From contig CAJINV010000005.1 in NCBI GenBank assembly GCA_905178155.1, positions 3,106,833 to 3,170,832 of the forward strand: a DNA stretch of 64,000 nucleotides, given 5' to 3'. Shown piece by piece: positions 8,784 to 42,863 of the stretch. The notes below the pieces were generated by a model. The model was not told where the DNA came from. It did no database searches and saw only the letters and a program-made list of their open reading frames with translations. The stretch is from Amoebophrya sp. A120. Lineage: Eukaryota; Protista; Dinoflagellata. A program made the translations under genes and the position numbers. Within the stretch, counting starts at the first letter, position 1, and every line of letters starts with the position of its first letter.

Positions 8784-9404
8784 TGTTGGTTCTTTTTTGA
8801 TCTAGATGCAAGTCGAACTAACCACGACAAGGACGATGTTTTTGAAAAAGACCGTATGCGTCATTTCGAATTTTTCGCACGGGCAAGTTCAGAAGCGACT
8901 TTATTTTCACACGATCGATGAGGTAATAAGTTAAAGTATTCCTATTGCTTTAGAACGACTCTGATGTTCGTCCATCGCGCCACTTGCTCGTTGGGTCACC
9001 ATTCAGGTGTTAGTTTGTTGCCGAAATGGTTGTTCCTAACACTTAAAATGAATCCGCCGTGTTCATCCTACAAACGAATTGTACGTAAAACGAAACTTTT
9101 TCAATGGAGCGTGAGTGAGTATGTGCTTATAAGAATTTGATCCTAAAATAAATTGTACATACTGTAAATTCAGCACCAGCTAATAACGCCTGTGTCATTT
9201 TTCGATTGAACGACTTGGCATGGAAGGAGCATGGGAGAGCAAGAGGAGTGAGACCGAGAAATGCTGAATTTTTCAAGACGCGCCAACGACTAGGGGTGAG
9301 GCATTAAATGAGGCAGTAGATGATTGTCCTCACCCTCAGATCATGTCACGAAAAAGATGGCGCTTCTATGAAGCCGGTCTGAAATTTTTGTCTTGTTTGA
9401 AAGA

Positions 9405-12400
9405 ATGAGAACCGTACGCCGAGAAGTTTCTGCAAGAACCGCGGGTGCCGTGCCCGGTACGCACTCGCGTTTTTGCAGACCCACGTTTCTTGTGCTTGCT
9501 CTTCATCTACACCTGGATTTCTTCTTTGATCCCAGCAGCCAGGCGCTGGTTCGCGCTATCCAGGCTGGTGTCGCCGAGAAAGGCGCAGCGAGTTCGCGTG
9601 CGGTCAAGACTGACGAAAGAACTGCAGATCTTCATGCTGGCGGGTCCACTACTTTTTCCCAGCAGGGTGGAGACAATTTGCACGACATCAACTATTCGCA
9701 CGGCTACAGTGAGACGGCCGGTGGGGAGGGGACACTAACGAGTGGCGGCGGCGACTCATTACAGCAGAGAAGGGTCTTGCAGCTCCACAACGACGGTGAC
9801 TCCGAGGCGTATTCTCCGGAGGAAGCCAATGATCATGATCATGCACAGGCATCATTGCCTGGAAAAGCATAGACGCAACGGCCTTCTTCCTTCGCCAAGC
9901 TCGAGGACCAGGACAAGTACTATGAAGCATTCGAACAAGCAGCTGCACCAGCTGCACGGCAACAGCCGCAAAGCGAACCAGCCCAATCAACACAGCAAGA
10001 AAAATCGACCGCTGCTTCTCAGGATCATGTTCATCAGGATCAACATGCGGAAAACGAACAACAATCGCACGGAAATTTAGTTCCTGTGGACAGCTACAGC
10101 AACAGCGCCACGAGCTTGGAGGCCCGGGTGGAGCGGGCGGAAGCGGAAATGGCGCGGATGAGACAGCAGATGCTGGAAATGGAGGAGACCAAACGGGAGC
10201 TCGCAGCTCTGAAGAACGCTTTTGGAGAGGAAACCTCGTTTGTGCGGAAAGCGCTCGCGCGCGTTCGCTGGTGCGGGGCCATCACCGTCAGCTTGATCCG
10301 CTTTCTGCTCGAGTCGTTCATTTGCTACGAACGGGTAGACACGGTGTTTGGGTTTTACCTGCTGCTCTTCGCGTACGTGTCGATGGTCAGCGGGACGTTG
10401 ATGCCCGTCAAGATGATTTTCTTCCCGCACAAAATTCTCCTGAAGATTTCCCCCCAGGGGCTGGCGCAGAAGGTGCACGCGAAGCTTTCTCCCTTGGGTG
10501 GGCGTTTTGCCGCCACGACCGGCAGCTCCTCCTCGGGGGACCATCCTGGCGGGGACAGCACATCAGAGCAGAAGCAGGAGGGCGAGGACGCTGGCGACGA
10601 GAGGACTGGTGGTAGTCTTGCAACCATGGAGGTCGGGAGGGCAACTGCTCCTGTGAATGTTAAAGCAGAGGACGAACAGCGACAGTTGCCGGAAGAAACC
10701 GGGGCCGACGCCGAAGACCTGGACAAGCCTTCAACGAGAACAGAAGGGGAGGATCAGGCCCAAGCACAAGCCCCGGAGTACGAGGAAGGCAGAATGTTTC
10801 CGCGCGGTTTCCTGGCGGCGGGCACGCTGTCCTGCGTGTGCCAAGATAGCGACAGTGCGGAGGGGAAGCTGTTCACCCTATTCCTGGTGCTGTACATGAT
10901 GGCCACCTTGGTAAGCCAGTACCCTTTTCATGCTATCCCAACAGAGAAAACGCTAGCCTGTGCTTGTAATGCAAAAGTGAATTTTTTTTTTTTTTTAGAA
11001 TTTAAATTTAAATATAAGGCAAACAAGGCCTGTCGTGCATAGCCGAAACAGCGTGGTGTCCTATGGGCCTGCCCATGACAAGTTTTTTGTTCTTGCATTG
11101 GCTCTGCTAGCTCTTTTCTCTCCGTGTGATACACCCTTACCGCTCGTTCTGCCTCTGGCGAACGGAAGAAATGGCCAGTGACCGGGGCGATCTGGCGTCG
11201 CCGCGCATGAGTTCGGATTTCGAGATCGCTTTGCGCGCCGTTTGGCTGGTGGTACCCACCTACTTCTTCGTCGTAACGGCCGTGATACAAACACACAACC
11301 CGGATACAGACGAAGTCGAGAGCAGCACCGCGGCCCGCTCGGCGGCTGTATCGCGGATCGCCGCGGCGGAGGACGGCGAGGCGGCTGAGGACACGCCCCG
11401 GACGCGCACGCGAAAGCTCCGTGCGGCGACGCGGGAGAACCGCAGAGCCCAGGTGTTTTACCTCGTGCACTGGGCCGCCGCCACCACCGCCAGCCTCACC
11501 CTCCTCGTGTTCGAGATGGTGCAGCTCTTTTGGGGCGAGCAGGTTCCCCTATCGTACCTGACCGCGGTGTTCGACACCGATGCGGTGGACCTTTTCGACC
11601 AGCTGGCCACGCTATGCATTGCAAAAATGTCTGGGTCTGGAAGGTTGCAACTTGTCATGCTGTTTTTGAACTGTAAAAAAGTTTGTATTGCATGACCAGC
11701 AAGAGGGGTACAGTTTTTGCTACACGGACAGGGCATTTCTCATGCGGAAGGTGCATCAGGAAGCCCTCTAAAAGTCTGCGATGCTAGGTTAAGCATTACA
11801 GGCATCATGGGTCATGAGAAGTATGCATGACAAATCTTGCATTCTTCCAGGCCCAGGCATTTTTGCAGTTGATACACGCGGGAGGGCTACCTGTGGCACC
11901 TGGGGTGTCTGGACTATGCGCAGACCCCGCGGCCGTGGGAGCGGCATATCAAATGTAAAAATGTCTGGGTCTGGAAGAATGCAACTTGTCATGCTGCATT
12001 TGGATTCCAGAAAAATCTGTATTGCATGAGTACCAAAAGGAATGTGATTTTTGCTACGCGGAGAGGGCATTTGTCATGCGGAATAGGCATCAAGAAGCTC
12101 TGAAAAAATCTGTCATGCCAGGGCATGCATCACAGACATCAGGGCTCATGCAAAACGTGCATGACAAGTGTCAGAATGTTCCAGACCCAGACATTTTTAC
12201 AGTTGATACGGCATACCTGGCTCCGACTCCTCGGCATCTGCCTGGCCCTTTGCTGCGCGATTTCGTTCCTCACCATGCGGGCCATCCTGAAGAAAGTGCT
12301 CCCGCCCATGCAGGATTCCTCACTGGTGCAGCTACCCTCGTCCACCTCCCGGACCACCCGAGGCCACGTATCAAAAATGCAAATATCGATCTGGGTTTGG

Positions 12401-15172
12401 AAGAAACTCTTGTGATACAACTAAAATCATCGACATTAAGATGAGAGCACATCTAAGTGCAGCCGAGCATGACCGGTTTTATTTGAGACCCTCCGTCATG
12501 ACATCAGTTGTGCGCACTACTTTCACTTTCTGCATGTACGACATCAAATGAGGCCTTTAGTCTCGTCCCAACGTGGCATCACATCAATGAAGCTGCGCTC
12601 TCGATTAATCGGTCATGCAAAAATGTTACAGATTTATTGCCCGGACCCGAATGGGCCACACATGCAATACACGTTGACCTTTTCGTCCAGGCCCAGATCA
12701 ATAGCTGCAATGGATAAGGAGGACCGCACGACGACGTCTTGTGGGCGAACACAGTGACTAGGATTAGCGTCGCGCGATGTTCGTTTCTCTCGGAAGTGCT
12801 CCTGTGCTACCTCCTCTTCGCCTTGCCGCTGATTGCCTCGCACCACATGGTATCAATTGCAAATGTGTCTAGGTTAATATCCGGATGAGTGCAGACGTTT
12901 GTCATGCGCATTTTTTCGCATGACGCAACACGCATCACAGATTTGTTGAGGGCCTCTTGATAGTACCTGTTCCGCATGAGAGATGCCCTCTCCGCGTGCC
13001 ACGAAATGGACTTCCGCTCCTCTGGCTGCTCATGCGAAAATGCCGACGTTTTCCTTTTCCTTTTGAATTTGAGAATAAATATGAAGGCAGCTGCATCACA
13101 AGTCTTGCTATCGTTCAGCCCCGGACGAGGACGTCTTTGCAATGCATACATGGTCACCCGCCACGCCCTTTCGCTGGATGACCACATGAATGCGGAGCAG
13201 CTCGCGGAAATGGTGCTCATTCGCGGTGTATCAAATGCAAAAATGTCTGGGTCTGGGAGGAAGAGGATAGAACTTTTGATGCGTGCTGTGGGTCACACAA
13301 CAATCTGTGTTGCGTGATCACCAAAAGCTGTCCTTTTTTGACCAACATGCGCGGGAGTTTCTCATGCAGGATTGGCATGATAGAGATTTCGCAGAATCTG
13401 TCATGCTAGGTCCTGCATTCCAGACCTCATGGGTCATGGAAAGGCAGCATGACAAATCTCGCAATCTCCCAGACCCAGACATTTTTACATTTGGTACGGT
13501 GTGGTGGAGCGCTACGAGCGACTTCTGCCCCCAGAGGACCTCTACACGGAAGACTTGCACAAAGTTCGGTTTTATGCATTGCAAATATGTCTGGATCTGG
13601 AGGAGTGGTGCAAGTAGAGAGAAGTGTGCTCCTGAACTCCCAAGAACATAAGTACTTCCCAACTCATCTGTCATGCGTGTTGCGGAAAAATATTCAGTTG
13701 GCGCTAGTTGAAGCGCAGCTTCTGATGCGCCTTACGCACCACAGGATCGTTCAGGTCTGATCTGCGGTGCTTGGCTGCGTGCTGACATTGGAGCTGGCAT
13801 GACAACTATTATTGGATCCAGACATATTGGCACTCGATAGGCGCCAGTCGTTCTGGGACTTTGTGTCGTACCCGGAATTTTCCGAACTCCACGAAGTCAT
13901 GGGGCGCAAGAAAGGCGAATTGGACACCCTCGCGGATAAACTGCTCATGAACCCCGCCAACCAGCTATCCTGCGCGGGAACGTGCCCACCTTCATCCCAT
14001 AGTCCAGACGCGACTCGTTCCAGACAAAAAATTGATTCAGACATTTTGCATGCAAATATGCACGACAGCTCTCTGTTGGTGGGTACGGTTTTGAGCAGCA
14101 TACCCGCGCGCCTCACACCTGTCAAAGGTTCTGGCGGACCGGAAGAAGTTCGGCGGGATGGTCCGACACATGAACACGCCATATGATGTATCATACAGAA
14201 AAAATCTAGCTGGTGCTTAGCACTACACATGTGATGCATAGAATGAATTCCTTTTTTCGCAGAAGGATCTCGCCACGGGGTAAGTAGTTCACCCATAGCA
14301 TGCTGCTTGAGACTTCTTGCAAGAGCGCTTTTTTTGCGGATCTATTTTTGCACTATGCAAGCTTTTTTCTGTGTGATAGGATGAGTGGATCGCACAAACA
14401 CGGCATATATCAAATGTAAAAATGTCTGGGTCTGGAAGATTCTGAGATTTGTCATGCAGTTTTTCCAAGCTCCGCCAAGTCTCGAATGCAGGGCCTAGCA
14501 TCACAGGTTCTGCAGCCCCTCGGTGATGCCTATTCTGCATGAGAAATGCCCCCTCGGCATGGCTAGAAATGGGGACCTTTTGCAAGTCATGCAACACAGA
14601 TTTTTGTATGATCCGCAACACGCATCACAAGTTCGCATCCTTCCAGACCCAGACATTTTTACATTTGATAGCATATGACTCGTGACTTCGCGGAACTCGC
14701 AGCGGTGCTGCGCGAAATGTTGGAGCAGAGGGACAGCTATCAAATGCAAATATGTCTGGGTCTGGAACGTTGCAGGACTTGTCATGCAAGTTTTCCATGA
14801 CCCATGAGGTCTGGAATGCGAGACCCAGCATCACAGATTCTTTGAGGTCTCTACCATGCCTTTCCTGCATGAGAAACTTCCTCTCAACTTGGTCAAAAGC
14901 GGACAGCTTTTGGCACTCACGCAACACAGATTTTTGCATCATTCAGATTTAGCATGACAAGTTGCAGTGTTCCAGACCCAGACATATTTGCATCTGATAA
15001 CAGCAAAAAAGAAAAAGCAGGATCCTATGGAGCCGCGGCGGCATATTTCCGCAACCACGTGGGGCCGAAACCACAAGCGCTTGACCACAAGCACATCAAG
15101 AATGGGAGGCAGGAGGACTTCGCGCTTGCCTTCGAAGAGGAGGACTTCGGGCCCGCTCTATCAGATCGATAG
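9405..15172 (+). CDS. Multi-exon multi-pass membrane protein of unknown function, interrupted by 11 TIR introns
   Basis: Removing each element plus 5 nt gives a continuous frame from 10086 to the stop at 15170-15172 (e.g. LFDQLAT-REGYLWHLGC...WERH-TWLRLLGIC...SHHM-VTRHALS...QRDS-KKEKAG...LSDR*). The 5' part (9405-9869) is in the same frame but separated by a TAG at 9870-9872. Confidence 0.75.
10934..11131. mobile_element. Introner/MITE intron, TIR subfamily B
   Basis: Left TATCCCAACAGAGAAAACGCTAGC vs right revcomp TATCACACGGAGAGAAAAGAGCTAGC; flanks CATGC/CACCC; removal restores frame. Confidence 0.75.
11613..11874. mobile_element. Introner/MITE intron, family A (262 bp)
   Basis: TIR TATGCATTGCAAAAATGTCTGGGTCTGGAAG...CTTCCAGGCCCAGGCATTTTTGCAGTTGATA; perfect TSD CACGC. 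Confidence 0.9.
11947..12208. mobile_element. Introner/MITE intron, family A (262 bp)
   Basis: TIR TATCAAATGTAAAAATGTCTGGGTCTGGAA; perfect TSD CGGCA. Confidence 0.9.
12369..12716. mobile_element. Introner/MITE intron, diverged family A
   Basis: Left TATCAAAAATGCAAATATCGATCTGGG vs right revcomp TATCCATTGCAGCTATTGATCTGGG; flanks CCACG/AGGAG are diverged; frame restored by element+5. Confidence 0.7.
12851..13148. mobile_element. Introner/MITE intron, family A
   Basis: TATCAATTGCAAATGTGTC...GACGTCTTTGCAATGCATA; perfect TSD CATGG. Confidence 0.85.
13229..13496. mobile_element. Introner/MITE intron, family A
   Basis: TIR TATCAAATGCAAAAATGTCTGGGTCTGGGAG; perfect TSD CGGTG. Confidence 0.9.
13573..13839. 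mobile_element. Introner/MITE intron, family A
   Basis: TATGCATTGCAAATATGTCTGGATC...GATCCAGACATATTGGCACTCGATA; flanks GGTTT/GGCGC. Confidence 0.8.
13966..14102. mobile_element. Short introner/MITE intron with a distinct TIR
   Basis: Left TATCCTGCGCGGGAACGTGCCCACC vs right revcomp TATGCTGCTCAAAACCGTACCCACC; flanks CCAGC/CCCGC. Confidence 0.75.
14189..14378. mobile_element. Introner/MITE intron, subfamily B
   Basis: TATCATACAGAAAAAA...TTTTTTCTGTGTGATA; flanks TGATG/GGATG. Confidence 0.8.
14408..14670. mobile_element. Introner/MITE intron, family A (reverse orientation)
   Basis: TIR TATCAAATGTAAAAATGTCTGGGTCTGGAA matches at both ends; perfect TSD GCATA. Confidence 0.9.
14738..14999. mobile_element. 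Introner/MITE intron, family A (reverse orientation, 262 bp)
   Basis: TIR TATCAAATGCAAATATGTCTGGGTCTGGAAC; perfect TSD ACAGC. Confidence 0.9.
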
Positions 15173-17001
15173 AGCGGGCGAAGCTGGTACAGGATTTGTA
15201 CTTTTGGTACTAAAAGGAAAATGTAGTAGGGCGGGAAAGTAGACATAAGGATTTTTTATCCACCAGCACATGGCCCAGAAATGATAATGCAGTTGTAATA
15301 GGAGCGAGAAGGAGAACGAGAAGTTGAACTTGAAGTACAACTTCAACTACCTCTACCTCAATCAGCTGCAGCTGTGGATAAAGAGCGAAGAAACTACCCT
15401 ACTTTGACGTGGTCAACAACACAGAAGTGTTTCTTCGGCAGTTGAGACAACCATAGCCAATTCACGGGCGTTTACGCTTAAGGAGAAATTTTAATTTTTG
15501 TCTTTTGAAGAAATAACTTCTGTATCGATAGGTAGCTGAATCGTGGATCAGCAAGCAACATATGAAATAGAGGACACGAAGAACGCAAAAAAGTAGATTT
15601 AAATGTTATGAACTTTGTTGGGCTTTTTTTTCAAAATTTGAGGAACTTATTTATTTATCGCAATAAAAAATCGAAATCGTGAACGACAACGAAATGGAAG
15701 TCGGTTTTTGATGTTGAGCCAGCTAGCTGTGAAAAAATATACACGACAACTACTCGGACTTGTTCATCTTCTTGCGATGAACATCATCAGTGAACTCCGA
15801 TCTTCGAGGTGTGAGCGAAGTAGAAAAATCTGTTTCGTTGGACAAGAATCAGTCATCGGTCAATATTCCACCCTACGAAGACACCGGTGGAATAAAGAAA
15901 CAGTCGGTCCAGAGCAGAAAAATTCGCGAGTACAAGTGCGTCGGCCGTACTGTTGATAGCGAACAGAGAACATACCGAATCGGAAGAAATGCTGCTACAC
16001 ATTATACAAGTGTGAAGATCCAAAAATTATTGAAGAACAAGAAACCCACAATTAATGGCGCATCGAGTAGTAAAAAGTGATCTGTTATTTTCTAGCTACG
16101 GAGCTGCATTTTTGTGCCAATTATGTTTTTGTGTTTTGCGATGGCCCAGATGATCCCCTTTTCGAAACATTGACACTTGCCACACGCACGACAGGTCCAC
16201 TGTGCTCATTTGTGATTCTTTATTTCCCTTTTTACTGAAGATCCGCCGATCGAACTTTTGTTTCTGCCAATGAATTAAGTAACGTAGACGCTGCAAATAT
16301 AGTAGAAGCAACAATCACGAGGACGAGAAGAACGAATCCCGTGAGACGTAGCGCATAGTCGTGTACTACTAGTAAAAGCGAGTCCAATTATACGTGTTTG
16401 TACTTGTCGGTTACAAGAAGGAACAAACCACAAACACGACGACCCCACTGCGGCACTAGAACTTTTCCTCTTTGTCGTTGAACCGCTGGTTGATGCTGTC
16501 CACCTACTAGAAGTGGCTTTACGTCGACCACAGAGGCAGTAAAATATTCGTCCCGCGGCATCCATCTTCGGTCCTGCTAAAGCACAAAGCACTGTGAAAA
16601 CGGTCACGCCGGTTCGGACAAGGTCATCTTCCTGCAAGCGGACCGCTCGCAACGCACGCGGGAAGAACAGGAGCAGGCTCTTTTTCGAGGAAGAAGAGAG
16701 GCGTTAAGTTTTGAATTTGCCGTCGGAGCAGTTGCAGCACGTTCGAACTAGGGCGACAGTCATCTGACGGAGAAATTACAAAGGCTGACCAAAAAAATAA
16801 TTGAAGTTGGAGCTCCACGCAGGAAGAATTTTTCCACAACCACCCTGCCACGACCCACGGAGATAAACCGTCGCGACAGGAGGAGCATAGGAGCAGAAGA
16901 ACCCACGGAATATAAACACATCGCGAACTAGAGGAACTACACACGACCTTGTTGGACTCCTTCCGCTTCACTTGTAGTACCAAAATACTAGATCGCCCAG
17001 C

Positions 17002-18668
17002 ATGGAGATCGTGATCTACCTTCTCGGCAACTGGTGTTGCATAGGGGCGGCCTCCATCATCATATACAACTTCATCATCCGCAGGGGGCACTGCAAGGAC
17101 AGCGAACGCGACCTGCAGATATCAAAAGACATGCAGCTCATGCTCTTTCTCGGGACCTTCGTCCGCTTCTACTGGTCCATGAGCCCACCACCAATCTGGT
17201 ACAGAAGATTTTTTGCTTCCGACGTTTATAATTCTTCAAATTACACTCCTGTAATGTACTCATGACACCAGAGCAGCTCGTGTGTGATTGTGCGGCAGCA
17301 GTGTCATTGCTGTCAGTCTGTAATACCTCAACAGTATCACAACACGCAGTTCATTCTAGAAGAGTCGGTGCTGCAATCTAGATGTACTGGATGCTCTTCA
17401 TTTCGCCCTCCACCGCTGATAGAGAAATACATTGCACTTCGAATATAAACTGATCTTGTTCTGCTCAGCAACAAATAAATTGGAGTGGTTTGTTTCCGAA
17501 AATACAGAGTGGTTTGTGCTTGAGTCGATTGCTTGAATTATCACAGGTCTGAGGAGCCGGTACCAATTCAATGGGTGTCAATTTTCGACCTGATTTTTTC
17601 CATTCTGATGTGGGGCCTCTGCGTGTGCTGCTCAACAGACTACGGCGTGCAGTTTATGAATTCCATGGGCGGAGTTGGCCGTGGCGGATACAACGCAGTC
17701 CCGGGACAGGCGGAGTTTGGTATTCATTGCGACTTTATCTTCCTCTCGCTCTCGACAACTTACTACGCAGATCTAGTAGCTACCATACGAACTTTTCTCG
17801 ATATGACGGAAGAGACCCGAGATTTCTTTCAGTTTTCCGGGAAGAAGTTTTCAACAAAAGTTTTTCTTTGTGTAGCCTCATGCGCTATCTATCGATCTAT
17901 TAGTAGAGGACGGCGACCGCTTGTTCCAAATCCAAAAGCATCCATTTTTTCATCGCTAACAAATCGTACGACAACAGACGGCCTGGTGCAAGACGACTCA
18001 ACTGGTTATGCGGGCGGCTCGGGCGGCGTAGGAGGTTTCGGGTCGGGCAAACCGCAAAACCAGTCGGCCCTCTACCGGTACACGCGATGGCCCTTCCTGA
18101 CCGGCGGCGCCGCGGTCACCGCTTGGCTGCTCACCCACCTGCTCCCCAGTCTGCACATGCCGGGCGCCTGGATACTAGTCGACTTCGCGGTGGTCTTCAA
18201 CATGCTCCTGGACGGCTGCGCCATGGTGCCGCAGGTGATACTCATCCACTCCAGCAGGACAAAAACTCCGGTGGAGGCCAGCCACTTCGTCGGCCTGCTC
18301 TGCCTCGGTATGGTTCAATGTTGATAGGATACGGAGCATGTGCGTTTTTGTTCTATATTATCTGCTCAACAGGAGCAGATGCCTTTGCTTGCATCACCAC
18401 CGGACTAAGTATTACGTTGCATCAAGAACTAGTACATCGAAGCATGAAGAAAGCCATCTCTTTCATTCATCACGCAGGCCGCCTACTCCGAATGATCTTC
18501 TGGCTCTGGTTGGTGCTGCACCCGGATTCCGGGCACGCAATATGGACGTTCGTCGTGCCAGATCTGCTCCACACGGTGATTATGGCAGATTACCTGTACC
18601 ACTACCTGCAGAAGCTGAAAAGGGACAGGATCGACCCCTACTTCGTCGATTATATGACTCACGTATAA
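17002..18668 (+). CDS. ER lumen protein-retaining receptor (ERD2/KDEL receptor)-like, paralog 1
   Basis: ISKDMQLMLF..RFYWS, LDGCAMVPQV, SHFVGLLCLG-RLLRMIFW, DLLHTVIMADYLYHY; GT-AG introns at 17199-17546 and 18308-18477, probably another near 17710-17977. Confidence 0.75.
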
Positions 18669-23650: not shown

Positions 23651-26058
23651 ATGGAAATCCTAATTTACCTGCTCGGCAACCTGTGTTGCATTGCAGCAGC
23701 GGGGTTGCTGGCGAAGCAGCTGCTGACCAGCAATGTAAATACCGAGACGAGCCTGCACATCTCCAAAGACCTGCATATGGCGTGCTCAGCTGGAACAATC
23801 TCAACATAGAGGAATCTGTGATGCAAAGAAAACGCGGATGATCGACCTCGTCTCCTGTCTGCTCAGCATGACAAACAACTTGTGACTGCTGTAAACTGAA
23901 CCAGAGCTGAACCAGAGTTGTCCATGATTAAGAAGAATTGCCGGGCTTCAAATAAGCTGCAGTAAGTACTAGTCTTCGGCACTCCGCAATTTTTGCGTGG
24001 ATAAAAAATACCATGTGAAGATCTCTATTCACATCGTTCTTCCAGTTCAGATCGTTCCAGCTGAGTACGCCATAGTGCAGTACATGCTTTTCTTCGGCTC
24101 CGTATTCCGACTCTATTGGAGCTTGTCACCGCCGGAGATCTGGTAAAAGTTTTGAAATAGGAATAGCAAAAGAAATGTAGAAGTATATTAGTACTCGATC
24201 TCGAATTCTAATAAGTACCAGAGCCAGGCAGAGCATATCTTGAATCACTTTGCACGTGATTAACCCTCACACTCAAGGTCAGAAGAGGCCACAATAGTGC
24301 AGTATCTGTGCTTCGCTGACCTGGCCGGTACCGTCTTACTCTGGGGCCTGTGCGCCGTGCTTTCAACCAAGTTCGGGAAAAACCTCTACTGGGAACTCAC
24401 CGGCGTCCGGTCACAAGACAGCAAAGCGAAAGGTAGGTGAAATAATTTCGATGAGTTTAGCCACGAAAGTGAAAGAATACCGCTCTTCACGTTGCTTGGA
24501 TATCATATTCGCAATGTGAAGATTTGGAACTTTTTCTCAGCTTCGGCACGACTTCGCGTGTATGAAAACAATGGATATAAAAACACCACAGCGAAGAAAC
24601 CAGCGGAAGGTTTTACTGCTCTCTTGACCTGGTATCGTAGAGAGAATAACTAGAATGTCGCATCTTTGTAGTTGCAAAATTCAATGACAATCAATGAAGT
24701 AAGAACTACTTGAAGAACTACAACATTTTGAGAAATTGTGTCATGGGAAAGCCCATGGCATGCATGTTAAGACCAGACGAATCTTTTCGCGTGTTCATTT
24801 CCACGGGACAAAGCCGACATACTAGCTTTTTTCTATGTGATACCTAGCCAATACTTTCGGTAGCCGCTGGCGTTCTGGCGTGGTTAGCAACGCATGTCCT
24901 GCCGAGCTTAAGTGGACCAACAGCTTGGCCCTTCGTGGATTGGGCAGTACGTTATGAAATGTTTGTTTCAATATGCTTTTTCTTGGAAAACATATGTGAA
25001 TGAGCAAGTTTGTTGTTTGCTTGATACTTAGACTTACCAAAAATTCTGTCCAGGTTGTGTGGAACATGCTTATCGACGGAATGGCAATGATATCCAACGA
25101 AGATCGTTTGGATTCGTGTAATTGGAAATAAATCTGTATACACAGAGACCAAGAAGTTGCTCTTGCACCACTTCGTCTCATGCCGGATATCGATATTCTG
25201 CATGACAGGCTTCGTGCTTCGGGCAGCACAAAGATTGTTGTTTTTGTACAGAGGGAGGACGCTTCATTGACTTTGACTCCTTTTTGTTTTGTTGGATAAC
25301 TGCTGCCACAAATTCTGACTCTGTCCGCGTCAGAGGAAAAAACACCAAGAATAACATCGCACTTCGTTGGCTTGCTGTGCGTAGGTACTTTATTTTACAA
25401 GAAGTGCTATACTTGAACATGATGATGATAGTGGTTCGGAATTGCCTGGAAATTATCCTGACATGTTGATTCGTAAGTCATGCGAACTTCCCTTATGTAC
25501 GGAAGAACAGCTTGGATCGATTATGTCGGTCAAAAACTACAAATCAAAAAGGTCGCGTCTTGCGCATGATTTTTTGGATCTGGTTATCCACTGGGAAACA
25601 TCAGGCGGAGCAAGATTGAGTAACATATTTCGGGGTCACGTCACGTTGCTCCATTAAGTTCGGCGGGGCGAAGATCTGTCATGTTTTTGTCGAAACGCGA
25701 CGCCGACGCCGGGCCGTGAGTTCGGCGGAGCCAATCTGTCATTCAGATTTCTATGCGATTGCAAATCTAACAAATCCGTTGAGTCGACGAGTACTTTCGT
25801 TTCATCGACTTTGGCAGGCTGTCGAGGAGGTCATCTGAACGCAACTAAACATGATACTCACTTCTGCTTCCTTGCCTGTTTTCCATTCGATCCCATTTGG
25901 TGTTCCACCCAGAAGCCGGACACGCCATGTGGACTTTCATCCTGCCGGACCTGATGCACAGCGTGGTGATGGCGGACTTTTTGTACCACTACGTCCAGAA
26001 GGTAAAACGCGACGCGAAAGAAATGCTCAACTTCGGTTACGACTACGCGCACGCGTAA
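23651..26058 (+). CDS. ERD2/KDEL receptor-like, paralog 2 (highly fragmented by introns; missed by the ORF track)
   Basis: Exons align with paralog 1: MEILIYLLGNLCCI, ISKDLQYMLFFGSVFRLYWSLSPPEIW, LAWLATHVLPSL, NMLIDGMAM-LPQI, TSHFVGLLCVG-RVLRMIFWIW-LVFHPEAGHAMWTFILPDLMHSVVMADFLYHY. Confidence 0.8.
23776..24074. mobile_element. Introner/MITE intron, distinct TIR
   Basis: Left TATGGCGTGCTCAGCTGGAACAATCT vs right revcomp TATGGCGTACTCAGCTGGAACGATCT; flanks CTGCA/GTGCA. Confidence 0.9.
24633..24842. mobile_element. Introner/MITE intron, subfamily B-like
   Basis: TATCGTAGAGAGAATAACTAGAATGTCG...CGACATACTAGCTTTTTTCTATGTGATA; flanks CCTGG/CCTAG. Confidence 0.8.
25091..25298. mobile_element. Introner/MITE intron (diverged)
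   Basis: TATCCAAC...GTTGGATA; flanks AATGA/ACTGC; join AM-LPQ matches paralog AMVPQ. Confidence 0.7.
25585..25892. mobile_element. Introner/MITE intron (diverged)
   Basis: TATCCACTGGGAAACATCAGGC...GCCTGTTTTCCATTCGATC; flanks CTGGT/CCATT; join IW-LVFHP matches paralog. Confidence 0.65.
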
Positions 26059-27087
26059 GCCAGTGCAATAGAATGTGGGTGGATTGTCAAAATGACAAGA
26101 GTACTTACTTTCTTCACTTGTTCGTACTTGTTTCTCATGCGTGAAATAAGGCTAGGCCGCCGGTCTAGCCTGTTTCACAGGGAAGGCAAGTGACGCGGCT
26201 AAAGATTGCAGGCTTGTTCATTCCCATGGACGAGGCTGCTTAAAACATTGGCAGGAGTGTCTGTCTTTGCCCCAAACCGCAGGCGAACTCGACTTTGCTT
26301 ATCATGGGTAAAGTTTGCCACGCGTCGCGTGCATTTGCCGCGCCGCCAGGCTGGCGTCGTGTTTATGCGAGACAAACTGCTAATGTCCATTTTGTCGATT
26401 CCCCACCTCGCATTCGTTCCCATAACGCAGTATAAGGAGCAGGCTGACCGTCTAGTAAAACAAAAACTACCACGAGGCAGAGTCCGGATTTCCGCTTTTT
26501 CACAGAAGACGACACGACCCGGCTCCTCCTGAACCGTCTTGGAAGATGATAAAACACTACTACCTCGCGCGCACCTTAACCAGCAGACCGGCTGTTCTTG
26601 TCCTGTTCAATTTTTGCGGATTAATGTCACGAAATATCAAATATTTTTCCACAATTCCTTGCTTTTCCGCGACGCTCTGTGCCCTGTACTCCAGGCAGAG
26701 TTGGCTTCTCTTCTTTCGATGACGACAGGAGAACAAATTGTACAAAGAAAAGAAAAACTAGGACGCTTCCGATTGGAATCGTCCCTTGGTTGAAGCAATG
26801 GCCTTGGACGCAAGTATACAAACTACAAGAAACACATTCGATGCTTTTGATACACATCATTCAAAAACTCCGATAGAATCGATTTTCAAAGTTGAAAAGG
26901 TCTGGCGAAACTAAAATGATCAACTTATAAGCAGGACGACAATAAAGGAGCAGTAGCAGTACGAAGACGCTCACTTACCTTGCGAAAAAAACGCAGAAGA
27001 ATTTGTTTATTGTGCATTAGACTAGTTGCCGCAATCAGCCATGTTCCTGTCTTGTTCATACAGTACGCTTAAGAAGGCACAGATTGT

Positions 27088-36900: not shown

Positions 36901-39900
36901 AGCGATGCCCAGTCGTCCATTTTTAAGTGGTAAAGAATCAGCATGACGATCTTGTTGATCGTGAATCATTTGAAGTCTTATTTGTTTCCAAGCTATATGT
37001 CCAAAAATAGCTCGTCGAGCGGCAGGGCAATGGTTTGAACCGTTTGGAATCTTGGGGCATCAACAGTCTGATTGCGGCCCACGCGGACGACCCGGCCCCC
37101 TGGATTTTCACCCACACGGACCGGTCAAAACTCCGGGGCCCCATGAAGATCGCGCTCGAAATCAACCCGAGCTGGATCGGCGGCAACGCCGAGCCGCCCC
37201 CCGGGGACGCCATCTCGGACCTGGAGATCAAGGGCTTTTCCCGCGTCTCCGGGACCTACAGTTTCCTCCCCTTCCCGCCGAAAGAGGCGCCCGAGGAAAG
37301 CATGAAACCAGGGCAGAAAAAAAACCGCGAGTACATGGAAACCAGGACGGGTATAGAAGTGCTGTTGGAACAGCTGTTTTTTCTTTTTTATGGATGATAT
37401 GAGTGGGCACGAGCTCGTGCTTGCCGATCGTGATTACTGAACTGCATCAAGACCATGTAGTACGTTGATTTATTGAAATTGAAATCATATGAAAAATGAT
37501 CTCTCGCCGTCCACTCACAGCGTTGCAAGCTACGGGCGCCGGCTTGGATTTTCACTTCCAGCTAATCGGGAAGGGGAAGTCAACATCGGGCGTGTTAGGG
37601 AAGAAGCCAGAGGGAAACTATCGGTTAATGAATACTCTCCGATTTTCGTACGATAAGGCCCACAAGGTGCGCAACTCCTTACTCTTCAAATCTGCGGCGT
37701 CGAGCAGCAGTAGCTCGTTTCTGGAACAAAATACAAACGAGATGAATGCAGCTCTTCCCAGGAGTTCAAAACTACTATCAGAAGACGAGGACGGCGAATT
37801 GCGCATAGAAGAAAATCATCGAGCGATGGAACAAGAAGAATCAACGGCTTCGACCCCGCCGTCTTCGTTTGCTTCGTCCAAGAGAAACAAAAAGGCCGGC
37901 AACCTGCGCGGGGCGGGCAAGAGGAAAAGTGAAATAGAAAAAGACGAGTCGCCGCTGCTGCTTTCCTCAACTTCAGTCTCCGTCTCGAACCATGATGAAA
38001 TAGAACCAGCATCGTTGTCCTTGTCCTCCGACTCCGGTGGACGATCTTCTGTTTCGAGCTCCGTCCTAGAACTCGCCGAGGAGCAAAAGCCACTCACCGG
38101 CTCGTTCGGGAGCAGCAAAGCCAGCTCGTTCGGGATTTTGGGGGGGAAGGGCAGCGACGAGAAGCAGTACCAGTGGGCAATCCAGCAGTGGTAGGCATCG
38201 CAAATGTAGTGTCTGGGTCTGGAAATAAAAAGCCAAAGTTTAATTATTGCCACGCAGGTTTTCGTTTTGCATGGCCCCCGCTCGGAAGGTCTGAATCCGG
38301 GGACGAGCATCACAAGTTTTGTGAGGGCTTTGTACTCCCTGGTTTGCATGAGAAATGGCCCTTCATGGTGGTCCAAAGTCTGCAGCTTCTACTACTTACG
38401 CATGGCAGATTTTTGTGCGACCGAAAGAGAGCGTCACAAGTGTCCTCCTTTCCGGACCCAGATATATTTGCATTCGATAGGCGGAAATCGAACAAATGGG
38501 TGGACATGGTAATCCTGCAGGCGGTATCAAGTGCAACTATGTCTGCGTCTGGATCAGGAAGATTGCAAGACGGGTACGAACAGAAAAATCTGTCATGCGT
38601 GTTGTTTGTCATGCTCATGCAAAAACGCAGCTATTCGTATGTAGTGAGGTCACCGAACGGCTCTAACCAGGGAGTTTTTTTGACAGCCAGACAGCAAAAC
38701 GGCCGCCAGTTTTCAAGCGGGCGGAAGCGTTTTTGGACATAAAAAATTTTCAATTATCAAGCGGCCGGGGCTTTGTTGTCAAACAAGCCCGAGCCAATTC
38801 TATCGATTCGCACTGGATAAAACGACGCTGGGGAGCCGGCAAAAGGCGCGCCCTTTTGAGGCGCCCGCCGCCTTGGTTTCTGGCGATTTGGGGCGCCCAA
38901 AAAGGGGCGCGCAAAAAACGCGCCCAAAATCAGAACAGCGAAACAGCATGGCACGGCCGCGATTTCGGAGCATTTTATTGGGCGGCCGCTTTCGCGGCCG
39001 CCTTTTCGCCGGTTTCAGAGCCTGGGAAGCTTTGCAAAAAGCGCCGGCGTGAAAAATAAAAACGCGAAAAAGAAGAAACGCCGAAGACGCGCAATGCCAA
39101 TCCGCATGCTATGGGCCCGATTTTTCTTCGCTTTTTGGGCGCCCCCCCTGGCACCCGGATCGGCCCCATAGCATGGGGGCTGGCCTTCGCAAAGGAATTT
39201 CGGAAATTTGCCAAAATTTGCGACGTTTATCAAGCGGCCGCCATACCGTGCGGCCTAACGTTACTCACGGCGGTATGGCGAGCCCAGAAAAAGCAAAGCC
39301 GCGGCCAAGGCGATGGCCGGCAAGAAAACGCCCACGACCTCACTACCTCCGCCCCGGCGGCTATATTTGGTAACGCAGCACTCACATGAAGATGGTAACC
39401 GTGTTGACTTTAAAGTTTGTCACAGACTTGCGCACATCACATGAGTGCAAAACAAGCTTCCCGACGAGGCAGATCGATATTTGCAGTGCATAGGCGGAAA
39501 GAAAAGGGCAAAAGAACGACCAGTTTTCCTTCAACATTGGGCGCAACTTGATCAAGTCCGGGGGCAAGACGCCCCTCTTCGAGCCGTCCCTGAGCAACAA
39601 AGAGATGCACTACCCCGCGTTTTTTGCGACCAACCACTGGCCGGACAGCGGCGGCAGTTGGACGGTGACCGACGCGGCTCTGGGCTTCATGAGCCTCACG
39701 GGTTCCTCCGCGAAGCAAGAGCTCACCTTCGAGCCCCAGGTGGAAGACGGGATCGACACGGAAGAGATTATCGAACAACGCGGCGGAAGCACCATGGGAG
39801 GTTCGCAGAGGGTCTCCCACTCCTCCTCAACCAGGTCGCGGGCGATGAGCAGCCGGCAGCAGGAGTTCGAGCAGGTGGTTCCGTTCAACTCGCCGCAAAG

Positions 39901-42863
39901 TGTATGCGAGAAAAGAACTGTGTAAGTGTAAGTCTGTGATGCAGAAAATGCAAAACAGTATAATTTTGTTATGCTGGCCAGCCAGGGTGTCCTCTTTTCA
40001 TACGTGTTTTCACGTACTAGCTGTGCATGACAGGACTTGTCTGTCATGCAGAGCGAATTTGTAATGCTGTCACCTGAAGAGGAAGACACCTACACTAACA
40101 CAGTTTTTTTCTTGCATAAAGTGCCTGCTGTCTGGAGCTGGACGTTGGAGTAGACCACAAAGAGCAAGGAGAAGAAGAAAATAACGCGCAGGTGGGCATA
40201 GAGCATGGCGTAGAAGATGTGAACAACAACAGGATCATCGGTGGCGTTGGCATCGCAGCCCCGGTTAATGACAATGAAGCCCAACAAGACGGTCGTGTGC
40301 TGCAACCGGATCTTCAGGCGAACGACGTGGAGGTACCTCCTCTTCGAAGCGGACAAAGGAAATCAGCACTAGAATCTGATGACGACGACGAGAAGAACAA
40401 GAATGAAGCGGAAATGAAAATAACTCGGGCAGGACGAGAGGAGGCGGCAGCGTCCTCGTTTGCGGAAAAGAGTGGTGAACAAGTCAAACAACCGGTAGAG
40501 GACAAACACCAACTAACCGCACCAGTTGTCGGAACTACAGCAACTACAGGCAGGAGTAGCTCGTCTACTTCATCTGCCGCCTATAAGAATTTCGCCGAGC
40601 AACGCACTGTGGAGGTGCCCGAGGTACCACCTTCGCCAAGTAGATCTGCAGCTCCTTCGTCGATTGAGCCCGGCGACTTACGAGGAACCAGCAGCAGCAG
40701 CGGACAAGATGATAGTCGTCCCACTGACGCTGGTCCGGCGACTGCTGCTCTGAACATCAAGCAGTCTCATGGTGCCAACGACCTCCAGGAGCTAGATCAC
40801 CCGGAAAGCAGCGACAGTGGGGGTGCTGCAGCAAATACGGAGGGAGCATCTCTCGAAACTCCAGTCCGATTGCTCTCCCCGGAACACATTGCGAGTTACG
40901 AAAACGTATGAATTGCAAAAATGTCTGGGTCTGGAAGATTGCCAGATTTGTCATGCAGGTTTTCCATAACCCATGAGGTTTAATATGTAGGACATAGCAT
41001 GACAGATTCTGCAAAACCTTTCCAATGCCTATCCTGCATGAGAAACTTCCTCTCGATTAGGTCAAAAGTGCACAACTTTTGGCAATCACGCAACACAGTT
41101 TTTTGCCTGATTCAGATTTAGCATGACAAGTTGCATTCTTCCAGACCCAGACATTTTTGCATTTGATAAAACGTGTTTGCCGAGGCCGTGTTGACGGTGG
41201 ATGGGGAGAAGAGCTTGGAGAATTTGGGCGTGGTGCTGAACAAAAGGACCAGCACGTATCGCAAGAAAAAAGTGTTACAGTTACACATTGTGTTGCAGGC
41301 CAAGCAAGACAGACAAGCTCTGTCATGTCGGATATGCATAGGATCCTCGTTTCATAGGTGTTTTCCCGTGGGATTTCTGCAATACAAGTTTTTTCTCTCA
41401 TGCAGAGAAATTTGTGTTGCTGAATTCACTACAAATGTGTAACTGTAAGGCTTTTTTCGTGGGATAGCACGGGCAAGAAGTTCTTTAACGATGCAAAATT
41501 CAACGATGAAGGTGATCATGAAAAAGCGTACTACAATAACGCAAAGTCACAACAAGCTTCTTCCTCCTCTTCCTCGACGTCCACAGGCATACCGAGCGGC
41601 AGTACGACTCCGTCTGGAGTAGGAAAATCCTCGTCCTCTCAGAACAAAAGGCCCGGGAGCCCCGGCGAAGAAGCTGCCGCTGGGACTGAGGATGCCTTCG
41701 CAGAGGTACAAGTACCGAAAATGCAGCCACCAGAAGCAGAACAAGCGGGTGGTAGCAGCAGCAGCACCACAACCTCCGAAGCAGTTAAGTCTGCGCCTGA
41801 TTCGGGCAAAAGTATTAAGCCACCAGAACTACAAACATCAAAACGGAGTAAACTACAGCCCCCGTCCGTTCCGAGCATGAAAATGTTCAGCGGGGGAGCT
41901 ACAACGACCGGCGCGGCGCATGCGCAGGTAAATCAAGACCAGCGAGCGCTGCAGTTGTCATTCTCACCGACGACGGACTGGGTGGACGATGTGAATTTTT
42001 GGATGACGGAGTACTGGACCGTGGTGCTGGCGCTGGGGATCCCGGCAATCATTCTCTTTGTACTCTTCCGCAACCGCAGGTGGGCGAGGACGTGGGAAAT
42101 AGTCGAGCAGGAGACAAGAAAGTCGAAACAAGACACTCGATATTTTTCACAAAGACCAGCAAATGGTGCAGCAACCGATTTGCTAGTAGAGGACGAGGAC
42201 GAAGTAGTAGATGACAGGAGAATTATGAACATCAAAGCGAAAAGTAGCAAAGAAAAAAAGGCTTCGAAAGATAGGCAGAAAAGGAATCATTTTTCCGAGG
42301 ATGATAACCTGAACTCCTCCTCCTCCTCCGTCGGTGCTTCCTCCTCCACTAGGGGACGAAATCATACGGGCAGTTCTGCGCTGCAAGGCCTCTTCGCTGG
42401 ATCATACAGCACGACTCCTTCGACCGCGGTGACGCCACGGAAACTGGACATCACGTCGAGCAGCGAGGACGGTGGAAGTAGATCCACTCTATTCGGGAGC
42501 TTTCTCAACAGCATCGGCAAAAAGATCAGTAGTGCTGGCGGTAGTCCGCGTGATCATAGTCGTGGGTCGACATCTTCGTCTAATATGCAGGGCGGAGTTG
42601 TTGATCAGCCCGGAGAGGAACTACATCGTCAAACTGGTCCCCCTGGTGAACACGACGCAAACGAATCCTCGCCCTCACCGTCTCCTGTTGCGTCCTCGTC
42701 CGAGCCGTGCGAGGAAAATGATCCTGCTGAAGCAAGCGACAGCGAAGAAGAAGATGAGGAGCAAGATAACACGATGCTGTCGAGCGTTGGGCATTTGTCT
42801 CCCATCGCTAACGCGGAGGACGAACGGCCAACGCCGCTGCGGACCTGGCGGGACATCGCTTAA
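33932..42863 (+). CDS. Very large multi-exon, probable single-pass membrane protein; frame reconstructed from ~37010 to 42863, 5' exons and their linkage tentative (may be two genes)
   Basis: Hydrophobic N-terminus, acidic/Ser-rich tracts, TM segment YWTVVLALGIPAIILFVLF followed by RNRR; joins ETRT-ALQATG (GT-AG), AIQQW-KSNKW, LQA-ERKGQ, PQS-ACCLE, YEN-VFAE, RTST-GKKF. Confidence 0.55.
34777..35132. mobile_element. Probable degenerate introner intron
   Basis: Weak TIR TATCCGACGGAAAAAGTG vs revcomp TATGCCTTGAAAAAATG; flanks GGCAA/CTTAA; join PWQ-IRVSRPG is open. Confidence 0.5.
38192..38479. mobile_element. Introner/MITE intron, family A
   Basis: TAGGCATCGCAAATGTAGTGTCTGGGTCTGGAAA...TTTCCGGACCCAGATATATTTGCATTCGATA; flanks AGTGG/GGCGG. 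Confidence 0.8.
38525..39492. mobile_element. Family A-like introner carrying a nested insertion
   Basis: TATCAAGTGCAACTATGTCTGC...GCAGATCGATATTTGCAGTGCATA; perfect TSD GGCGG; removal restores frame. Confidence 0.8.
38644..39343. mobile_element. Nested GC-rich MITE with short TIRs and possible TA target duplication
   Basis: GTAGTGAGGTC (38641-38651) and GACCTCACTAC (39336-39346) are perfect inverted repeats; internal repeat TTATCAAGCGGCCG occurs twice. Confidence 0.65.
39903..40118. mobile_element. Introner/MITE intron, subfamily B-like
   Basis: TATGCGAGAAAAGAACTGTGT...ACACAGTTTTTTTCTTGCATA; perfect TSD AAGTG. Confidence 0.85.
40907..41168. mobile_element. Introner/MITE intron, family A (reverse orientation, 262 bp)
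   Basis: TIR TATGAATTGCAAAAATGTCTGGGTCTGGAAGA; perfect TSD AAACG. Confidence 0.9.
41257..41466. mobile_element. Introner/MITE intron, subfamily B-like
   Basis: TATCGCAAGAAAAAAGTGTTACAGTTACA...TGTAACTGTAAGGCTTTTTTCGTGGGATA; perfect TSD GCACG. Confidence 0.85.

What the first reader, a model, noticed from the sequence alone, without database searches (positions are those of the whole stretch)
10934..14999. Insertion hotspot: 11 consecutive TIR introns in about 4 kb of one gene, with micro-exons
Every intron I could identify in this stretch is a TIR element, from at least three TIR types. Exons are as short as about 24 nt (14384-14407). Nearby genes (3-3848, 6369-8783, 20487-21971, 51233-53335) appear uninterrupted. 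Inference: local hopping or a gene-specific bias. Adjacent family A TIRs could also cross-pair (e.g. 11613 with 12208) and skip exons, so some mechanism must enforce nearest-partner pairing.
Basis: partly seen in the sequence, partly recalled or inferred. Interest (0 to 1): 0.7.

Follow-up and report, generated by a model that had tools for sequence, protein, structure and literature searches.

The report
Clustered transposon introns with fixed cuts
Eleven small transposon-derived introns, a known oddity of the marine parasite Amoebophrya, are all missing from assembled transcripts (likely RNA) of one membrane-protein gene, cut at one fixed distance from their terminal inverted repeats, and they likely pile up because new copies tend to land 40-100 bases from an existing intron, not because this gene is a unique hotspot.

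Summary
Observation confirmed. The window is Amoebophrya sp. A120. All 11 TIR elements (10934-14999) are skipped in contigs of three RNA-like runs of one sample, leaving one 829-codon open frame. They are the introner elements of Farhat 2021, and a published A120 gene has 11 introns in 3.5 kb. The density exceeds a uniform Poisson, but the site is not unique: 2 of 48 comparison loci reach 11 elements in 4.07 kb. Local hopping is not supported. Two points were not in the papers I searched. (1) All 16 nucleotide-resolved TIR junctions fit one register: intron = 1 nt + TAT...ATA element + 4 nt, removing exactly one 5-bp target duplication; published work calls the boundaries variable. (2) Elements lie 40-99 nt apart about four times more often than chance (87 of 253 gaps vs 22), nearly regardless of the previous gap, which suggests insertion beside existing introns. 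Cross-pairing of TIRs is favoured at equilibrium; folding during transcription likely favours the nearest partner. Skipping isoforms remain untested.

The parts
9405..9872 (+). 155-codon frame from ATG 9405, ending in TAG 9870-9872, in frame with the main ORF (possible lost N-terminus or upstream ORF)
   Evidence: RNA-like contigs cover the TAG with 0 other letters (table 8)
9329..10932 (+). Exon 1, about 1.6 kb and intron-free; annotated start ATG at 10149 (P0001)
10933..11135 (+). Intron 1 (203 nt): TIR element 10934-11131, degenerate TSD 3/5
11136..11611 (+). Exon 2 (476 nt), transmembrane region; the public annotation splits the gene here (P0001 / P0002)
11612..11878 (+). Intron 2 (267 nt): family A element 11613-11874, TSD 5/5
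11946..12212 (+). Intron 3 (267 nt): family A element 11947-12208, TSD 5/5; 89% like the copy at 60964
12368..12720 (+). Intron 4 (353 nt): diverged A-like element 12369-12716, TSD 1/5; allows only offsets 1 or 0
12850..13152 (+). Intron 5 (303 nt): element 12851-13148, TSD 5/5
13228..13500 (+). Intron 6 (273 nt): family A element 13229-13496, TSD 5/5
13572..13843 (+). Intron 7 (272 nt): element 13573-13839, TSD 2/5; unambiguous junction that fixes the register at 1 nt before and 4 nt after the TIRs
   Evidence: (both = 0)
13965..14106 (+). Intron 8 (142 nt): element 13966-14102, TSD 4/5
14188..14382 (+). Intron 9 (195 nt): element 14189-14378, TSD 4/5
14383..14406 (+). 24-nt micro-exon (exon 10)
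14407..14674 (+). Intron 10 (268 nt): family A element 14408-14670, opposite orientation to i2/i3/i6, TSD 5/5
14737..15003 (+). Intron 11 (267 nt): family A element 14738-14999, TSD 5/5; 81% like the copy at 40907
15004..15172 (+). Last coding exon to the stop; the transcript continues past 15600
23775..26428 (+). Control gene: 9 RNA-supported introns (4 GT-AG, 5 TIR type in the same register), unspliced in DNA run X5
38191..41470 (+). Control gene: 5 TIR introns, including a 973-nt one with a nested repeat; rule-based removal matches RNA contig lengths exactly and opens 1124 codons

Best explanation
The 11 elements are Amoebophrya A120 introner elements, non-autonomous TIR DNA transposons with 5-bp target duplications, and they are missing from the assembled, likely RNA, transcripts with cuts 1 nt before the left TIR and 4 nt after the right TIR; the TIR hairpin likely acts as the ruler, and the cluster likely grew because new insertions tend to land 40-100 nt from an existing intron. 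SHOWN: excision of all 11; one register compatible with 16 of 16 resolved junctions; 5-bp TSD; both orientations spliced; copies unrelated to their neighbours; excess of 40-99-nt gaps. INFERRED: (a) 1 + 4 nt equals one TSD, so any insertion restores the original codons, and the elements can accumulate at little cost; (b) each left TIR pairs with its own right TIR during transcription before the next element appears, which gives nearest-partner splicing; (c) the catalyst is more likely a relaxed U2/U6 spliceosome (my odds about 55%) than a hairpin endonuclease plus ligase (about 35%), because the register puts T and A at +2/+3 as in this genome's GTA donors; (d) insertion is drawn to exon edges beside introns, probably by chromatin, with exons under about 30-40 nt disfavoured, so intron-bearing genes gain more and intronless ones stay empty.
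For: Excision and frame. DNA control: run X5 is flat at about 44x, unspliced over 22900-27099, with depth 0 at all 9 joints there, and holds 0.88 of the words of 9300-15200 against 0.40-0.50 for X1-X4. Register: offsets of 2 or more are excluded by 5 junctions, offsets of 0 or less by 3; the chance under a uniform cut position is 3.0e-4, or 1.8e-3 after allowing for the choice of offset. Seven further elements agree by contig ends or exact length sums, 1487 and 482 nt. TSD: 77% of 349 elements have a perfect 5-bp repeat, other lengths are at background (the detector rewarded 5-bp matches). Spacing: 87 of 253 gaps are 40-99 nt against a null mean of 22 (maximum 35 in 500 simulations) and 28-32 in GC-restricted nulls; the hazard is 7.4/kb at 60-80 nt against 0.5-1.4/kb beyond 160 nt and 0.35/kb under 20 nt. 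P(short after short) is 0.47 against 0.42-0.47 after long. In the window's control gene 6 of 6 exons between a TIR intron and a GT-AG intron are 32-100 nt. Folding with pair span limited to 400 or 700 nt pairs 11 of 11 left TIRs with their own right TIR. Donor likeness: 23 of 23 have T, A at +2/+3 and 4 of 4 canonical donors are GTA; intron 26055 has a GTAAG start with a non-AG end at ATA+4.
Against: The RNA runs are only guessed to be RNA, come from one sample and are contigs; the 5 control junctions rest on X1 alone. Only 8 exclusions from 7 junctions fix the register. For 4 of the 16 junctions the script did not return the outer TIR, and the ends were set or by eye. The TA termini were a selection criterion, so their invariance is partly circular, and a transposase also needs them. 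G at intron +1 among mismatched TSDs is 9 against 2, p = 0.065 only. The spacing data come from a related assembly not shown to be A120 (no near-identical A120 protein), anchored on a family A copy and without RNA; removing the called elements lengthened frames clearly in only 3 or 4 of 6 dense loci. Missed elements would dilute the memory test, and between-locus dispersion is real. The crude co-transcriptional fold depends on its setting: 7 of 11 own-only with 12-bp freezing, mostly wrong with 8 bp. A stem near -45 kcal/mol would bury the donor, and U1 was not found in A120 (PMC7789003).
Confidence: 0.62

Rival explanations
1. Gene- or region-level hotspot filled towards saturation: some genes take insertions at a high rate (open chromatin, GC-rich, weakly constrained) until exons approach a minimum size, and that produces the 40-100-nt gaps.
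For: Between-locus dispersion 101 on 47 df. Random splitting with a 35-nt minimum gives a roughly similar short-gap shape. Cluster exons are GC-rich (0.61, GC3 0.77, against 0.52-0.57 in most intronless ORFs). Old and young elements are interspersed, with no edge-to-centre age gradient (p = 0.53). A renewal model calibrated to the genome-wide density gives only about 0.4-30 such clusters, while 2 of 48 anchored loci reach 11.
Against: Short gaps do not predict further short gaps. Most runs are 1-3 elements long. The first 1.6 kb of the same transcript is empty. The intronless ORF 20487-21971 has GC 0.64. GC-restricted nulls do not reproduce the peak.
Confidence: 0.25
2. Local hopping: copies re-insert next to their donor.
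For: Five family A copies lie within 3.4 kb. Same-locus pairs are marginally more alike (0.737 against 0.723).
Against: The nearest relatives of all five lie elsewhere. In-cluster against out-of-cluster permutation 83 of 210. Nearest relative in own locus 6 against 6.5 expected; adjacent non-anchor pairs share a family in 2 of 103 against 5.6% at random.
Confidence: 0.04
3. Excision by a dedicated non-spliceosomal machine (a structure-specific endonuclease and ligase) that reads the hairpin base, working like Euglena nonconventional introns.
For: No consensus at the last four intron bases or at +1. Orientation-independent. A fixed geometry like Euglena's N3CDG...CH'GN5-6 code, whose authors favour non-spliceosomal factors (PMC12501133). 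U1 not found in A120.
Against: The register aligns TA with the canonical +2/+3; a hybrid GTAAG/non-AG intron exists; 83 of 89 spliceosomal proteins are present. Tunicate TIR-derived non-canonical introns are removed by a spliceosome (as reviewed in PMC11282704).
Confidence: 0.35
4. Relaxed selection: the gene is a transcribed pseudogene or truncated paralogue that tolerated insertions.
For: In-frame TAG at 9870-9872. Paralogues carry long N-termini, and similarity starts upstream of the first ATG after the TAG. Six paralogues could cover the function.
Against: 829 codons are open through 11 junctions; 29-37% identity to paralogues in ordered blocks; GC3 0.72-0.77 in the conserved part. Several elements are old (TSD 1/5 to 3/5), whereas a single stop implies at most recent loss. 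Precise excision makes insertions nearly neutral in any gene.
Confidence: 0.07

Closest known systems
Amoebophrya A120 introner elements / non-canonical introns (Farhat et al. 2021, PMC7789003; sections 5, 10, 11, 12, 16 read in full, supplement legends by search)
   Same: Same organism; IR starts with TAT and has a later A run; direct repeats; about 240-nt length; hairpins; 29,850 repeated copies; RNA-supported.
   Different: The paper gives DRs of 3-5 nt and calls splice sites variable or unknown relative to the hairpin (IRs 1-5 nt from the sites). Here one register fits 16 of 16 junctions with a 5-bp TSD. Its main text has no hits for nucleosome, exon length or distance between. I could not see its figures.
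A120 introners in Gozashti et al. 2025 (PMC12130899; passages, Dataset S3 whole, Dataset S2 part 16 of 33)
   Same: 'Tens of introns in a single gene' from many families; the example gene has at least 34 introns, with introns 3-13 listed within 3,535 bp and 16 assigned to 7 families.
   Different: Automated TSD calls of 2-6 nt and mixed donor/acceptor dinucleotides per family in the rows seen; no common register or spacing rule seen there.
Euglena nonconventional introns (PMC12501133, passages; PMC11282704, passages)
   Same: Non-GT-AG; terminal inverted motifs at fixed offsets define the cuts; direct repeats blur the junctions; transposon origin proposed.
   Different: The code there is N3CDG...CH'GN5-6 with a purine starting the next exon. 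Here it is N1 TAT...ATA N4, with long TIRs and no purine rule; the lineage is unrelated.
MITE-type introners of Micromonas/Aureococcus and Fritillaria borealis non-canonical introns (seen only as described in PMC9860276 and PMC11282704; primary papers not read)
   Same: Non-autonomous TIR/TSD elements that make introns without changing the mRNA; chromatin-biased insertion (nucleosome linkers).
   Different: Those supply or co-opt dinucleotide splice signals. Here neither end needs one, and the gap peak is about 60-70 nt, independent of element length, with no 10-bp period.

Membership tests
Amoebophrya A120 introner elements | Located in the A120 genome | tested here: met
   P0001 and P0002 are 100% identical to window exons and named Amoebophrya sp. 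A120
Amoebophrya A120 introner elements | RNA-supported intron with non-GT-AG ends | tested here: met
   11 of 11 skipped; none is GT-AG in the fitted register; run kind is 'RNA?'
Amoebophrya A120 introner elements | Terminal inverted repeat starting TAT, able to form a hairpin | tested here: met
   11 of 11 start with TAT; the terminal pairs form in 10 of 11 single-element folds, not in i8
Amoebophrya A120 introner elements | Direct repeat of 3-5 nt at the boundaries | tested here: met
   5/5 in 6, 4/5 in 2, 3/5 or less in 3 of 11
Amoebophrya A120 introner elements | Repeated in the genome | tested here: inconclusive
   Met for the 5 family A copies (105-128 full-length hits); the other 6 had no full-length hit among 440 elements and may be singleton IEs
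MITE / non-autonomous TIR DNA transposon | Cognate autonomous transposase identified | not testable with these tools
   No whole genome held; PMC7789003 found no transposase in A120
U2-type spliceosomal intron | GT/GC donor, AG acceptor, branch point | tested here: not met
   +1 is G in 11 of 23; no AG consensus at the end; only +2/+3 TA match canonical donors
U2-type spliceosomal intron | Lariat intermediate / spliceosome dependence | not testable with these tools
   No raw reads covered the exons
Euglena nonconventional introns | N3CDG...CH'GN5-6|R signature | tested here: not met
   The signature here is N1 TAT(C/G)...(G/C)ATA N4; it works alike but is not a member
Local-hopping transposon cluster | Neighbouring copies are each other's closest relatives | tested here: not met

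The most novel reading that the evidence does not exclude
Amoebophrya A120's apparently chaotic non-canonical splice sites are one code: N|TAT...ATA|NNNN, a hairpin ruler matched exactly to the 5-bp TSD, read without U1 or an AG acceptor. Insertion is self-reinforcing: introns attract new elements to 40-100 nt from their ends. Together these turn coding genes into chains of 40-100-nt exons genome-wide, and would let tens of thousands of A120 junctions be re-annotated by rule.
Probability: 0.45. Interest if true: 0.75.

Novelty: already known. Interest (0 to 1): 0.5.

Why it matters
The system is described and these introns are already in the public gene model, so the hotspot itself is not a discovery. 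What matters is the open question of how A120 removes tens of thousands of introns that have no GT-AG and no detected U1. A single register gives that question exact substrates: synthetic N1-TIR-N4 introns, offset mutants and predicted intron ends for lariat or circle sequencing. It also explains why insertion is harmless to the protein. The 40-100-nt neighbour preference, if it holds in the full genome, would be a simple feedback explaining why intron-dense and intronless genes sit side by side. I did not find either point in 8 full-text searches. Roy et al. 2023, the figures of Farhat 2021, most of Gozashti's Dataset S2, theses and subscription papers were not seen and may bear on this.

Tried and rejected
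No whole genome is held, so the genome-wide per-gene Poisson test used published totals only; whole records behind the loci are not held either. No listed holder is on record as RNA. Raw-read RNA runs X8, X9 and X10 did not cover any exon here, so exon skipping is untested. Of 15 joints shown, 11 are the introns and 4 join element interiors (cross-mapping of repeats); 10 more were not shown, and 87 were not shown. Pfam gave nothing for P0001 or P0002. The ESM Atlas gave no usable hit for the paralogue region. The representative search found only six A120 paralogues, so the function is unknown beyond a multi-pass membrane protein. No structure was predicted. Gozashti supplements have no genome-wide positions for this gene. 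A DNA-only register test from TSD mismatch asymmetry was too weak. Helical periodicity, dependence of gap on element length and age gradients were all negative. The co-transcriptional fold was faulty (frozen pairs overwritten) and was dropped. Two element coordinates were off by 1-2 nt and were corrected. Genome-wide stop-codon reassignment as in Amoebophrya ex Karlodinium was considered for the TAG and not supported: the other long frames in the window are stop-free. Earlier scan findings: nothing in this genome.

Full report
Identity and observation. A window exon matches two proteins named Amoebophrya sp. A120 at 100%. A TIR scan recovers 11 consecutive elements from 10934 to 14999. Contigs of three RNA-like runs from one sample skip all 11, introns 2-11 within one contig, and have little or no depth inside the unique introns 4 and 5. 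Joining the exons opens one frame of 829 codons. The public annotation splits this into P0001 and P0002. Six A120 paralogues of 481-1186 aa align across both halves at 29-37%, so it is one gene of a multi-pass membrane family with no Pfam match. Run X5 behaves as DNA: flat depth near 44x, one gap-free contig over 22900-27099, and no support for the 9 joints that X1 shows there.

What the elements are. They fit the introner elements of Farhat et al. (PMC7789003): TAT-starting inverted repeats, direct repeats, about 240 nt, 29,850 repeated copies. Gozashti et al. (PMC12130899) report tens of introns in single A120 genes, and their example gene lists introns 3-13 within 3,535 bp. The system and this density are therefore known.

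Splice register. I analysed 20 nucleotide-resolved joints: 11 in the cluster and 9 in the gene at 23775-26428. Four are GT-AG. The other 16 remove the TIR element plus exactly 5 nt. For 12 the script found this directly; for i3 and i10 the outer TIR comes; for 25584 and 26055 a terminal base is mutated and I set the ends by eye. Where the two TSD copies differ, the cut can be placed. Five junctions exclude 2 or more nt before the TIR, three exclude 0 or fewer, and intron 7 allows only 1. The single common solution is 1 nt + element + 4 nt. Under a uniform cut position the chance is 3.0e-4, or 1.8e-3 allowing for the choice of offset. Seven more elements agree by contig ends or by exact length sums (1487 and 482 nt), and removing five of them opens 1124 codons. 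In the comparison loci 77% of 349 elements have a perfect 5-bp TSD. Because 1 + 4 equals one TSD, excision restores the pre-insertion sequence wherever the element lands (inference). Farhat's Fig. 3 and S23 legends call the sites variable; that is what aligner ambiguity inside a TSD would give (inference). Family A is spliced in both orientations.

Which machine. The register places T and A at +2 and +3 in 23 of 23 elements, like the 4 of 4 GTA canonical donors. One intron has a GTAAG start and a non-AG end 4 nt past ATA. +1 is G in 11 of 23; among mismatched TSDs G is on the intron side 9 times against 2 (p = 0.065). Against a spliceosome: the donor sits in a very stable stem, there is no acceptor consensus, and U1 was not detected. 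The closest functional analogue is the Euglena code, N3CDG...CH'GN5-6 (PMC12501133). I put a relaxed spliceosome at about 55% and an endonuclease plus ligase at about 35%; neither was tested.

Is it a hotspot? Under a uniform Poisson the cluster is a tail event: 0.03-0.34 expected genome-wide at the non-canonical rate and 0.9-13 at the all-intron rate. A scan of metagenome contigs with the family A TIR gave 134 stored loci (557 kb; 123 non-overlapping) of an Amoebophrya-like assembly. Its elements are as close to the window's young copies (0.80-0.94) as to each other, but no near-identical A120 protein was found, so it is a related control and not proven to be the same genome. With the same detector (0.64 false calls per 10 kb on shuffles), 2 of 48 loci of 4.07 kb or more reach 11 elements in 4.07 kb, 6 of 48 reach 8, and L056 has 21 in 7.8 kb. 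These loci are anchored on an element and lack RNA. Such clusters recur.

How clusters form. Local hopping fails. In the window, i3's nearest relative is 49 kb away (0.89) and i11's 26 kb away (0.81); permutation 83 of 210. Among 440 elements the nearest relative was in the same locus 6 times against 6.5 expected, and adjacent pairs shared a family in 2 of 103. The gaps, however, are sharply peaked: 87 of 253 are 40-99 nt against 22 expected with counts fixed per locus (maximum 35 of 500 simulations) and 28-32 in GC-restricted nulls, while only 14 are under 40 nt. The hazard falls from 7.4/kb at 60-80 nt to about 1/kb beyond 160 nt. A short gap follows a short gap 47% of the time and a long gap 42-47%. 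Gap length does not depend on element length and has no helical period. In the window's control gene all 6 exons between a TIR intron and a GT-AG intron are 32-100 nt, so the attractor may be any intron. I infer intron-centred insertion with selection against very short exons. Gene-level bias probably adds to it: dispersion is 101 on 47 df, and a renewal model calibrated to genome density gives only about 0.4-30 such clusters.

Cross-pairing. The own partner is the strongest duplex for 5 of 11 left TIRs. The tighter competitor is right TIR k with left TIR k+1 across the short exon (for example -51.9 against -45.5 kcal/mol for L3). The unconstrained fold of 11560-15050 mis-pairs 5 of 10 left TIRs. 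Limiting the span to 400 or 700 nt gives 11 of 11 own pairs. A crude sequential fold gives 7 own-only, 1 mixed and 3 unpaired with 12-bp freezing, but mostly wrong pairs with 8 bp. A 973-nt TIR intron appears to be spliced, so a size cap would not prevent 600-nt cross-pairs. First-come pairing during transcription is the likely safeguard; rare skips cannot be excluded from contigs.

Pseudogene? The gene is transcribed and spliced, but a TAG at 9870-9872 separates a 155-codon frame from the main one. It is present in the RNA-like contigs, and similarity to paralogues begins upstream of the next ATG. The protein may be N-terminally truncated or read through. This does not explain the older insertions.

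Verdict. A real and known feature. The added value is a testable splice rule and a spacing rule that I did not find in the papers searched. Papers seen: PMC7789003 abstract, sections 5, 10, 11, 12, 16 and supplement legends; PMC12130899 passages and parts of supplements; passages only of PMC9860276, PMC11282704, PMC12501133, PMC12005148, PMC12787238, PMC11453091 and PMC13326754.

Noticed in passing
window 9405-9872 and 9873-10148: In-frame TAG between a 155-codon frame with a hydrophobic leader-like start and the main ORF; present in RNA-like contigs; paralogue similarity starts before the next ATG. Recent nonsense change, readthrough or upstream ORF.
   Followed up: partly
window 11136-11611: The public annotation splits one gene into two models (P0001 partial, P0002) at a GC-rich RNA coverage gap in exon 2.
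   Followed up: yes
window 38525-39492: 968-nt TIR element carrying a nested high-copy GC-rich repeat of about 700 nt, still removed from the transcript by length sum.
   Followed up: partly
window 26055-26428: Hybrid intron: canonical-looking GTAAG start, weak TIR, non-AG end exactly 4 nt after CATA; a possible intermediate between the two intron classes.
   Followed up: partly
L056:8410-8416 and L056:9677-9683; X5 contigs table 5c: Adjacent elements only 7 nt apart with overlapping TSDs (a 2-nt exon if both are spliced by the rule), and 12-40-nt spacers between elements elsewhere in the DNA run.
   Followed up: no
L001-L134: An Amoebophrya-like assembly shares several element families with the window at up to 94% identity, yet two protein searches found no near-identical A120 protein (best A120 hit 39%). 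If it is another species, the elements moved horizontally or expanded recently in both.
   Followed up: partly
window 14915-14999 in run X8: A raw-read RNA run with no coverage of the exons has about 200 reads on a diverged family A end, i.e. an element retained in some other transcript.
   Followed up: no
window 60964-61413: Two TIR elements 69 nt apart with degenerate TSDs (3/5, 2/5); both would be further tests of the register, but no RNA was laid there.
   Followed up: no
window 17003-18669: Small membrane-protein gene that appears to have only GT-AG introns, read from sequence; it looks like an ER retention receptor family member (recalled label; Pfam gave no hit on the one ORF tested).
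   Followed up: no
window 6345-8783, 20424-21971, 58525-60804: Long intron-free frames with WD40, phospholipase/carboxylesterase and ankyrin Pfam hits. All long ORFs that look like genes are on the + strand.
   Followed up: no
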